DNA of 64,000 bases from Octopus vulgaris (taxonomy: Eukaryota), in the NCBI GenBank assembly GCA_951406725.2, contig OX597815.1:113956001-114020000 (forward strand), read 5' to 3'. Below are positions 19,931 through 24,097 of the stretch, in pieces (the first letter of the stretch is position 1; each line of letters begins with the position of its first letter). A program made the translations under genes and the position numbers. Below the pieces are notes generated by a model. It saw only the letters and a program-made list of their open reading frames with translations. It did not search any database and was not told the origin of the DNA.

Positions 19931-21563
19931 TTAATAACATCAATAAAGTGTCCTTATTTTCTCACTTGAGAGGGCCTGGAATGGATGTGGTCACTATTTT
20001 CTTAGACTAATGGACTAAATTACCATTTTCAAAAGAAGTGACTTCCTAAACTGTTTGGTTTTATACTATGACAAAAATTTTTACAAGATCCTTTTTCTCT
20101 GCTTTGCCTGTTAACTCCTTCAGATAAACAGCAGCTAAGTTTTTGACCATTATATCTTTTTAAAATTTATCACGAACTTGATCCTGTTGATAAAAGAAAA
20201 ATACAAGTGCTCAACAATAAAGCATTTATTTTGGTATTTATCTAGTGTGTCTGGTGATGTAGCATATGTGAAAGTAGGAACTGGAAAGTAAGAGAAACAG
20301 GATATTTTATATTTTGAAGTGCACTATATAACTTTCATTTGTTTGCTATCTGAGAACTTTTCCTGGAAAACTTCTTTTACATCATTTTGACTAATTCCTC
20401 TTGTTATCATCTTTCCTATCAGTACAAGTGTTTCATTGCTTCCTGTTAGCAATATAGACATATTTAGTGGAAATGCCTTAATGTAAGTTAAAAGTCAGAG
20501 ATTTTTTTTCTGTTTTTCCCTTTTCTTTCTGTGCCTGTCTCTTTAAACTATAATTTGGTATTTATATTGGCAAAAACTAGGCCAAGCAATGAAAGAAGTA
20601 TTGTATGTTTTGGGGTTTTTTTTCCCACCAAGGTCAGTATTAGTTTTGAGGGTGGTGTCTTAACAGTTATAATTAGACCTTTACACATACTCACACATAA
20701 TTGCTACACTTAGGTTATATTGTAGTTTTTGTAATACTACTTTAATTAAATGTATTATTGATTTATTTTATTCCATATATAATGAAAACTGAACTTTTAA
20801 GATAATATCTTTTTCCACTTAAAGACAACTTCTAACACAAATAATGAAAAAAAAGTGATTTCTAACTTTGGCACAAGCCCACAAATTTATTCTCAATATA
20901 TCACTGGTATGTAATCATCCTTAGAGGATTAAAAGTTACAGTTGGCCTCAATGGAATTTGAACTCAACACATACAAAAACCATAACCATATGCTACAAGA
21001 CACAGTTGTTTGTGCCATATGTCAATACCACCACCACCACCTCCACCAGCAATAATAATTATTATCATTACTTCTAAATATGCTGCAAGGGTAACAAAAA
21101 TCATTTAATGTTCATTTTCCATACTGGCATGGGTTGGATGGTTTGACAGGGGCTGCACCAGGTTGCTTTGTCTGTTTTGACTTGGTTTCTACAGCTGGAT
21201 GCCCTTCCTAATGCCAACCACTTTACAGAGTGTACAGGATGCTTTTTATGTAGGACCAGCACCAGTTCTCATTATGTGGCACCATCACACACAAGTTATT
21301 ACTTGTGGATCCATAGATACGCATATGCTGTCTTGTACACATACATAAATGTTTAAAGATAAACATCATTTTTCATATATATATATATATATATATAATA
21401 GTTATCGCCATACTAATATGGCATTCTTATAAAAATAAGAATAAAGCTGTCCGCTTATTAGCTCCATGAGGCCATCGCCTTAAGTTAGCTATTTGATACA
21501 CAAACTGTATCCATATAACCTTCGAACAAGGGAGGTCAGTCGCTCCACACTACTTGACCGGCA

Positions 21564-21605
21564 GCTACAGACGCGTTTCGGGGTATTGCCCCTTTTCAAT
21601 GCATC
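21564..21605 (-). ncRNA. Second copy of the minimal type I hammerhead ribozyme, on the opposite strand
   Basis: Reverse complement reads GATGCA-TTGAAAA-GGGG-CAATA-CCCC-GAAAC-GC-GTC-TGTAGC; one stem I mismatch relative to the + copy. Confidence 0.75.
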
Positions 21606-22069
21606 GTAGCCAGACCAGTAGGTGTCGCTTCTGACAATCTCTGTTCGAAGGTTTTATTCACCTAGCTTCGGTGGAATACATCCACTTGTTTTCAATAATA
21701 GAAATATTAAAATTACTAAGTCTCTCTAAAAGAGAACAATGGCAGCGTTCCCGGAAAATAATAGTTATCGCCATACTAATATGGCATTCTTATAAAAATA
21801 AGAATAAAGCTGTCCGCTTATTAGCTCCATGAGGCCATCGCCTTAAGTTAAATATTTGATACACAAACTGTATCCATATAACCTTCGAACAAGTATTAGT
21901 ATGGCGATAACTATTATTTTCCAGGAACGCTGCCATTGTTCTCTTTTAGAGAGACTTAGTAATTTTAATATTTCTATTATTGAAAACAAGTGGATGTATT
22001 CCACCGAAGCTAGGTAAATAAAACCTTCGAACAGAGATTGTCAGAAGCGACACCTACTGGTCTGGCTAC

Positions 22070-22111
22070 GCTGCATTGAAAAGGGGCAATACCCCGAAAC
22101 GCGTCTGTAGC
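22070..22111 (+). ncRNA. Minimal type I hammerhead ribozyme (U3-A8 variant); predicted cleavage after GUC at 22105
   Basis: GCTGCA-TTGAAAA-GGGG-CAATA-CCCC-GAAAC-GC-GTC-TGTAGC: stem I GCUGCA/UGUAGC, core UUGAAAA, stem II GGGG/CCCC, GAAA, short palindromic stem III ACGCGU. Confidence 0.8.
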
Positions 22112-22337
22112 TGCCGGTCAAGTAGTGTGGAGCGACTGACCTCCCTTGTTCGAAGGTTATATGGATACAGTTTGTGTATCAAATAGCTAACTTAAGGCGA
22201 TGGCCTCATGGAGCTAATAAGCGGACAGCTTTATTCTTATTTTTATAAGAATGCCATATTAGTATGGCGATAACTATTATTTTCCGGGAACGCTGCCGTT
22301 GTTCTCTTTTAGAGAGACTTAGTAATTTTAATATTTC

Positions 22338-22384
<47 letters not shown>

Positions 22385-23639: not shown

Positions 23640-24097
23640 TCTTCGAACTTCGAGCCTCACAGAGGCAAGGGTTTGTGACCGAGACCTTTGGTGATGTGCT
23701 ATGCTTGAGAAAACCTGTCAAGCCAAGTGAAATCATAGTCATGATAACTGGTACCTGTGCTGGTGGTATGTAAAGAACACCTTTTGAGTGTTGGGCCTTA
23801 CAAAGGTAAAGTGGCTGAGTTCCTTTCGAGTGTTAGGCCTTACGGAAGCAATGACAGACCTTTGGAATTATGTCATGCTTGAGAAGAAGACCCATCAATC
23901 CAAGCAAAATTGCAGTTGTGGTAGATACCAGTGTCATGCTAATGGCACGTAAAAGCACCCATTACACTCTCGGAGTGGTTGGCATAAGGACGATCATCCA
24001 GCCATAGAAAACCATGCCAAATCAGACTGGAATCTGGTGCAGCCTTCCAGCCTAGTCAAACCGTCCAGCATGAACAACAGATGTTAAATGACGATGA

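What the first reader, a model, noticed from the sequence alone, without database searches (positions are those of the whole stretch)
21396..22343. 363-bp non-coding unit inserted as greater-than-unit-length, differently permuted, head-to-head arms in (TA)n: candidate retrozyme or Penelope pLTR system
Seen: the left arm 21396-21893 (about 1.37 units) and the inverted right arm 21894-22343 (about 1.24 units) differ by only a few substitutions and start and end at different points of the unit. There is no long ORF. In ribozyme sense both 3' ends point outward and merge into the TA tracts through TATTA(T) microhomology, and each arm reads through an intact cleavage site. Established: Penelope-like elements give tandem and inverted pLTRs and some target microsatellites; retrozymes are non-autonomous ribozyme repeats of a few hundred nt that spread via circular RNA. 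Inference: a circular or multimeric RNA was reverse transcribed from both ends of a break in (TA)n, suggesting a recently active and possibly uncharacterised family.
Basis: partly seen in the sequence, partly recalled or inferred. Interest (0 to 1): 0.85.

Follow-up and report, generated by a model that had tools for sequence, protein, structure and literature searches.

The report
Young retrozyme carrying Penelope insertion signature
This is one copy of a young, high-copy 363-base non-coding repeat with a predicted self-cutting ribozyme; its copies sit in TA microsatellites with the paired ends typical of Penelope-like retrotransposons, so it is likely a known kind of hitch-hiking element (a retrozyme), and its copies make the insertion mechanism testable.

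Summary
The structure is real: a 499-nt and a 450-nt arm of a 363-nt unit, head to head in (TA)n. It is one copy of a young dispersed family (768 exact ribozyme copies in G000). The unit carries a minimal type I hammerhead with the U3-A8 core variant, supported by covariation across three older sister families. The "differently permuted" ends are not scattered. 3' ends fall at two fixed sites 63 nt apart (102 of 106 arms), and all 56 inverted loci with both ends classifiable have one of each: the Penelope "tail". 5' ends are truncations. Target duplications are 12-13 nt where visible, and both arms share one haplotype. An autonomous Neptune-type Penelope-like family in the same genome shows the same end rule, TA target and core variant, but no pLTR homologous to the unit was found. 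Best reading: a non-autonomous Penelope-like element (non-LTR retrozyme), likely copied from both ends of a staggered break by a borrowed RT/GIY-YIG protein. Expression, cleavage, circles and the partner are not shown. It is a new member of a known kind with unusually clean mechanistic statistics.

The parts
21375..21396 (.). left (TA)n target tract; overlaps the arm end by microhomology
21395..21893 (-). left arm, 499 nt, unit 252->24; ends at the fixed 3' site A (no tail)
21564..21605 (-). hammerhead motif of the left arm; predicted cut between 21570 and 21569; C178A at 21604 breaks one stem I pair
21893..21894 (.). head-to-head junction of the two 5'-truncated arms (no overlap here; 2-6 nt overlap at 47 of 61 inverted loci)
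21894..22343 (+). right arm, 450 nt, unit 1->87; ends at the fixed 3' site B (with tail)
21894..22256 (+). one 363-nt unit, non-coding, 41% GC, predicted highly self-paired (circular fold z about -6)
22015..22165 (+). long predicted rod that carries the hammerhead at its tip (-66.3 kcal/mol, z -7.5); its base (unit 249-262) is the main 5'-truncation hotspot
22070..22111 (+). minimal type I hammerhead: stem I 22070-22075 with 22106-22111, U3-A8 core 22076-22082, stem II 22083-22095, palindromic stem III 22099-22104, predicted cut after 22105
22281..22343 (+). 63-nt tail (unit 25-87), the stretch between the two fixed 3' ends
22341..22380 (.). right (TA)n target tract

Best explanation
It is one insertion of a young non-coding 363-nt repeat family that is likely a non-autonomous Penelope-like element (non-LTR retrozyme), likely copied into (TA)n by a borrowed RT/GIY-YIG protein that primes both ends of a staggered break on RNA from one source. 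Shown: the family, the two fixed 3' ends 63 nt apart, one of each per inverted insertion, variable 5' ends joined by short microhomology, 12-13-nt duplications and a shared haplotype. Inferred steps: (1) tandem copies are transcribed into multimers that the dimer-type hammerhead partly cuts to unit length, with some perhaps circularised; (2) the protein cuts TA-rich DNA with about a 12-nt stagger; (3) one DNA end primes at site A and the other at site B; (4) each cDNA runs a variable distance, often beyond one unit; (5) the two cDNA ends are joined head to head and repaired. A Neptune-clade protein is the likeliest helper, but the partner family is not identified.
For: 768 exact copies of the 35-nt ribozyme core, 0 for the reversed control. 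In 61 of 63 core-bearing loci on C1+C2, 3' ends were A 52, B 50, other 4, and 40 of 40 classifiable inverted loci were A+B; with top-hit loci 56 of 56 (0.5^40 = 9e-13). Frangieh 2024 (PMC11167929) showed in vitro that the two tail ends are RT start sites and that both DNA strands are cut and extended. A-only (10) and B-only (13) loci exist, and second arms range from about 40 to over 1200 nt, as expected if each end is its own priming event. Arms agree at subfamily sites 23/23, 32/33 and 22/23, against about 50% expected for the first two. Informative duplications of 12-13 nt occur at 7 of 56 loci against a shuffled mean of 0.13, maximum 2. Hammerhead covariation: 7 of 14 pairs change on both sides, including C3-G8 versus U3-A8 and the stem III palindrome; core plus stem III intact in 112 of 121 copies. 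8 of 147 5' ends fall at unit 211-216, at the predicted cut (2.4 expected, P 0.004). The autonomous 781-aa RT+GIY-YIG family N1 has the same U3-A8 core, a palindromic stem III, TA targets and A+B ends in 7 of 7 two-arm loci.
Against: No autonomous element with a pLTR homologous to the unit was found among the loci tested. N1's tail is about 40 nt, not 63, and is unrelated in sequence. Expression, self-cleavage and circularity are untested. Minimal Penelope-type hammerheads cleave poorly in vitro (PMC4209133), and hammerhead cleavage was not needed for insertion in vitro. Frangieh saw no difference of start site between strands, so the strict A+B pairing is not yet reproduced biochemically. The 211-216 window was widened by two bases after seeing the data, and 15 of 363 windows reach the count seen at 213-216 (of the 14 top windows printed, 13 lie at the 249-262 hotspot). 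Alleles matched by unit rank in both arms are few (L148, L114; L001 at a recurrent CpG), and L024 and L145 carry alleles that do not fit.
Confidence: 0.7

Rival explanations
1. Same element class, but the second arm arises by fold-back: one cDNA is made from RNA, folds on itself and is copied back, and the palindrome centre is later deleted asymmetrically.
For: Arkhipova 2013 (PMC3846280, passages) read palindromes at inverted junctions as self-priming. Four loci (L123, L152, L018, L021) have both arms ending at the TTCGAA palindrome, unit 256-257. It explains the shared haplotypes and rank-matched alleles equally well.
Against: Without later deletion one arm must fit inside the other; 20 of 56 loci, including this one, fit neither way. 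A-only and B-only insertions show that each site can abut the target by itself. Both DNA strands are extended on RNA in vitro.
Confidence: 0.15
2. The obligatory template is a 363-nt monomer circle, read rolling-circle fashion from sites A and B (first reader's circular model; compatible with the insertion chemistry of the best explanation, differing only in the template).
For: 60 of 106 arms exceed one unit, up to 2744 nt. 26 rare alleles are present in every copy within a locus, 8 of them across 5-6 units of L092; two more run through all 8 units of the long L122 arm. The unit folds strongly as a circle. Related animal retrozymes accumulate as circles (PMC7229834).
Against: The excess of 5' ends at the cut site implies linear cleaved RNA in some events. 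Alleles confined to one unit rank in both arms (L148, L114) fit a linear multimer. Homogeneous arrays can also come from a homogeneous source array, template jumping or unequal crossover. Fixed outer ends carry no information on circularity.
Confidence: 0.3
3. The arms are ordinary 5'-truncated pLTR remnants of an autonomous Penelope-like element.
For: The architecture matches published PLE copies. Two loci join the unit directly to PLE coding sequence in the same orientation (L101, L140).
Against: The unit closes on itself with a 363-nt period, up to 7.5 units, with no ORF between repeats. No unit-ORF-unit layout was seen in 84 loci, nor an adjoining ORF in loci of the sister families. L101 and L140 join in mid-unit or mid-ORF, as deletions or template switches would.
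Confidence: 0.04
4. Assembly fold-back artefact.
For: Inverted near-identical arms between simple repeats are prone to it; the focal junction was not checked in reads.
Against: The arms differ at private sites and end at two different fixed positions. The pattern recurs at 56 loci with locus-specific junctions and target duplications, and opposite-strand joints appear in contigs of a public run.
Confidence: 0.01

Closest known systems
Animal non-LTR retrozymes (Cervera and de la Pena 2020, PMC7229834; Li et al. 2026, bioRxiv 10.64898/2026.07.22.740005)
   Same: Non-coding tandem unit of a few hundred nt, GC below 45-50%, one type I hammerhead per unit with palindromic stem III, TSD longer than 4 bp, co-occurrence with PLEs; mussel units are 350-390 bp.
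   Different: The young families have the U3-A8 core, described from PLE pLTRs rather than the canonical retrozyme core (the oldest sister family keeps C3-G8). Most copies are inverted two-arm insertions with fixed ends, which the parts of those papers I read do not describe. No homologous pLTR found. circRNA not tested.
Endonuclease-positive Penelope-like elements, Neptune and Penelope/Poseidon clades (PMC8557442, PMC3846280, PMC11167929, PMC4209133)
   Same: 5' truncation, partial tandems, inverted 5'-truncated copy, tail on one arm, short TSD, AT-rich or microsatellite targets, minimal dimer-type hammerhead including the U3-A8 variant.
   Different: No ORF. The tail is 63 nt versus 30-40 nt and the TSD 12-13 nt versus 8-10 nt in the rotifer examples. 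The tail is described there as optional or often on one end; here it is on exactly one arm in 56 of 56 loci.
Non-autonomous Chlamys elements such as MRC1 (PMC8557442, passage)
   Same: Non-autonomous PLE with pLTR-like partial tandems and multicopy head-to-tail insertions.
   Different: Green algal, resemble their partner's 3' end, and the clade lacks canonical hammerheads.

Membership tests
non-LTR retrozyme | short non-coding unit (about 150-400 nt, low GC) in tandem copies, no LTR layout | tested here: met
   363 nt, 41% GC, stops in all frames, arrays to 7.5 units
non-LTR retrozyme | type I hammerhead motif in each unit | tested here: met
   fold and covariation; core plus stem III intact in 112 of 121 copies. 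Rfam gave no hammerhead hit.
non-LTR retrozyme | self-cleavage of the transcript | tested here: inconclusive
   only indirect: 8 of 147 5' ends at the predicted cut
non-LTR retrozyme | accumulates as circular RNA | not testable with these tools
   only contigs available, no RNA holder on record
non-LTR retrozyme | dispersed mobile family with TSD longer than 4 bp | tested here: met
   768 core copies; 12-13-nt duplications at 7 of 56 loci, the rest mostly hidden in pure TA
non-autonomous Penelope-like element | two fixed 3' ends defining a tail; variable 5' truncation | tested here: met
   102 of 106 arms end at A or B; 5' ends spread over the unit
non-autonomous Penelope-like element | partial tandems and inverted 5'-truncated copy, tail on one arm | tested here: met
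   61 inverted loci of 84; 56 of 56 classifiable are A+B
non-autonomous Penelope-like element | sequence homology to the pLTR of an autonomous partner | tested here: inconclusive
   none in the PLE loci fetched; the searches scored only 150 of 6136 GIY-YIG candidates
autonomous Penelope-like element (pLTR remnant) | repeat flanks an RT + GIY-YIG ORF | tested here: not met
   0 of 84 loci (1.5-3 kb flanks) show unit-ORF-unit; PLE coding hits near 7 loci are neighbours or mid-ORF joins
plant-type LTR retrozyme | direct LTRs with type III hammerhead, PBS/PPT, 4-bp TSD | tested here: not met
   type I topology, tandem or inverted layout, 12-13-nt TSD

The most novel reading that the evidence does not exclude
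Penelope-like elements insert by obligate twin priming: a protein dimer cuts with a 12-nt stagger and starts one cDNA at each end of the tail, one per DNA end, on one RNA. This family is a retrozyme lineage that has ridden that machinery through four waves without any pLTR ancestry left, switching its hammerhead core from C3-G8 to U3-A8, cleaving in vivo and multiplying its unit on a circle. It would be a direct genomic demonstration of how retrozymes move and a 363-nt minimal template for PLE insertion.
Probability: 0.35. Interest if true: 0.7.

Novelty: new member of a known kind. Interest (0 to 1): 0.45.

Why it matters
That animal retrozymes are moved by Penelope-like elements has been proposed from shared ribozymes, co-occurrence and pLTR phylogeny, with the mechanism left open. 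This family carries the PLE insertion signature at hundreds of young loci. Its strict one-A-one-B rule, 12-13-nt duplication and single haplotype per insertion give a concrete model of how PLE inverted repeats and tails form, which a short RNA and a purified protein could test. As an element class it is ordinary.

Tried and rejected
Rfam: only microRNA-like noise on TA runs, no hammerhead hit. My first reading of the core as CUGCAUUGA was dropped once the alignment showed stem I GCUGCA/UGUAGC and a UUGANAA core.

Partner search: GIY-YIG family scan (150 of 6136 candidates scored), 30 larger regions, two loose ends from public contigs, and the sister families. These found PLE families and older non-coding relatives, but no homologous pLTR. 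L064 first looked like a co-insertion with N1, but the unit is joined to an older unrelated repeat (89-94% to its kin), so it was rejected as evidence. L101 and L140 join the unit to other PLE coding sequence; deletion explains them as well as template switching.

Sequencing runs: no RNA holder listed and contigs only, so no evidence on expression. Holders carry six organism labels in ten studies. No tRNA in the window and no PLE coding hit in it. Earlier scan findings: none.

Literature: searches found no description of this family or of an obligate A+B rule (Penelope + twin priming + inverted + retrotransposon + both ends: 0 papers). Searches used a guessed, untested host-group word. Dfam and Repbase were unavailable and the papers' supplements were not seen, so the family may already be catalogued.

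Full report
OBSERVATION. The window holds a left arm at 21395-21893 on the minus strand (499 nt) and a right arm at 21894-22343 on the plus strand (450 nt) of a 363-nt unit, head to head between two (TA)n tracts. I number the unit from 21894. The left arm runs 252->24 and the right arm 1->87. They differ from the unit at 5 and 2 positions, and all frames are closed.

FAMILY. A DNA search of G000 (2.8 Gb) gave 1360 candidates, of which 40 were scored, at about 96-100% identity for full units. The 35-nt ribozyme core occurs exactly 768 times (reversed control 0). I fetched 61 of the 63 core-bearing loci on C1 and C2, a sample chosen by position and including this locus, and added 23 other top-hit loci. 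Arms are a median 98% identical to the column-majority yardstick and fall into a few subfamilies. Three older non-coding relatives exist: F2 (83%, about 360 nt), F3 (about 75%) and F4 (about 67% over the ribozyme region, period about 325-360 nt).

ENDS. In the positional sample, 52 arms end at unit 17-29 (site A), 50 at 80-91 (site B) and 4 elsewhere. Of 44 inverted loci, 40 have both ends classifiable and all are A+B; with the top-hit loci it is 56 of 56, and 5 inverted loci have one odd end. 89 of 102 3' ends run into (TA)4 within 20 nt. 5' ends are spread over the unit with a hotspot at 249-262, and 47 of 61 junctions overlap by 2-6 nt. Where TA is interrupted, a duplication appears: 12-13 nt at 7 of 56 loci and 8 nt at one, against a shuffled mean of 0.13 for 11-14 nt. 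This is the Penelope-like architecture described in PMC8557442 and PMC3846280 (passages): 5' truncation, inverted copy, tail on one arm, short TSD. PMC11167929 (main text, parts 1-2 of 4) showed that the tail ends are two internal RT start sites and that both DNA strands are cut and extended. So the arms look permuted because of two fixed starts plus truncation, which says nothing about circles.

ONE TEMPLATE PER INSERTION. The two arms agree at common polymorphic sites (site 68: 23/23; site 340: 32/33; site 43: 22/23), against about 50% expected at sites 68 and 340. Among rare alleles at sites covered more than once in a locus, 190 are in one copy, 26 in all copies and 12 in some. L092 and the long arm of L122 carry rare alleles through 5-8 units, which fits repeated copying of one monomer. 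L148 and L114 carry alleles in the same unit rank of both arms only, which fits a linear multimer; L024 and L145 include alleles that fit neither. Template topology is therefore open.

RIBOZYME. Rfam missed it. The fold (z -7.5) and the alignment of 7 relatives give stem I 22070-22075/22106-22111, core UUGAAAA, a 4-bp stem II, a palindromic stem III and a cut after 22105. 7 of 14 pairs change on both sides and 94.8% of cells pair, while slid controls pair at 26-55% (few sequences, structure chosen from them). The core pair is U3-A8 in F1-F3 and C3-G8 in F4, and the palindrome stays a palindrome in all. The U3-A8 variant and dimer-type folding are described for PLE hammerheads in PMC4209133 (parts 1-2 of 4), with low activity in vitro. 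8 of 147 5' ends lie at unit 211-216, next to the predicted cut (P about 0.004, window adjusted after viewing), a modest hint of cleavage in vivo. The left arm's C178A weakens stem I.

HELPER. The genome has many PLE families. N1 encodes a 781-aa RT + GIY-YIG protein with the CX4CXXC linker that marks Neptune/Nematis. It is young, inserts in TA, has the same UUGAUAA core as F2 with the same palindrome, and shows A+B ends in 7 of 7 two-arm loci among 30 fetched (the query selected tail-bearing copies). Its tail is about 40 nt and it shares no detectable sequence with the unit. No locus of 84 has the unit flanking an ORF. The partner is unidentified.

MECHANISM. Most likely a borrowed PLE protein cuts TA-rich DNA with a stagger of about 12 nt and primes both ends on RNA from one source, one at site A and one at site B; the truncated cDNAs are joined head to head (confidence 0.7). 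Fold-back with later central deletion is the main rival (0.15): 20 of 56 loci, including this one, cannot be made by fold-back alone, and A-only (10) and B-only (13) loci exist.

KNOWN VERSUS NEW. It works like, and meets the sequence-testable criteria of, a non-LTR retrozyme (PMC7229834, passages and Discussion), a class argued to be non-autonomous PLE derivatives in bioRxiv 10.64898/2026.07.22.740005 (parts 1-3 of 5). Cleavage and circles are untested. I found no description of this family or of a strict A+B rule in nine library searches; supplements, Dfam and Repbase were not seen. Verdict: new member of a known kind; interest 0.45, for the clean mechanistic signal.

Noticed in passing
L066:744-5960 (G000:C6), also L061-L063, L067: Young Neptune-type PLE family N1 with an extra upstream ORF (up to 479 aa, no convincing Pfam hit) overlapping the 781-aa RT+GIY-YIG frame; many apparently intact copies. 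Two ORFs are unusual for canonical PLEs (recalled; an intron was not excluded).
   Followed up: partly
L090:3937-4490, L187:1469-1908, L251-L269: Three older sister families (F2, F3, F4) with similar end structures; the hammerhead core switches from C3-G8 (oldest) to U3-A8 (younger).
   Followed up: partly
L101:1-1324 and L140:2820-4600: Direct same-strand joins between the unit and the coding region of GC-rich Neptune-like PLEs; template switch or deletion.
   Followed up: partly
L064:2941-3098, L198-L216: Another TA-associated repeat of 1329 candidates, 88-94% alike, with inverted copies of its end in several loci; class not determined.
   Followed up: partly
L117:444-500, L153:2618-2680: A further repeat with a U3-A8 minimal hammerhead and palindromic stem III, ending in TA about 60 nt downstream; present in inverted pair in L117.
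   Followed up: no
window:56178-57662 (+): A 495-codon open frame, probably a large host exon; no Pfam hit at E 0.01.
   Followed up: partly
window:21175-21222 and 23974-24021: Two diverged inverted pieces of a common dispersed repeat flank the insertion at a distance; unrelated to the unit.
   Followed up: no
L090:1914-3150: Tandem repeat with a period of about 594 nt next to the F2 copy.
   Followed up: no
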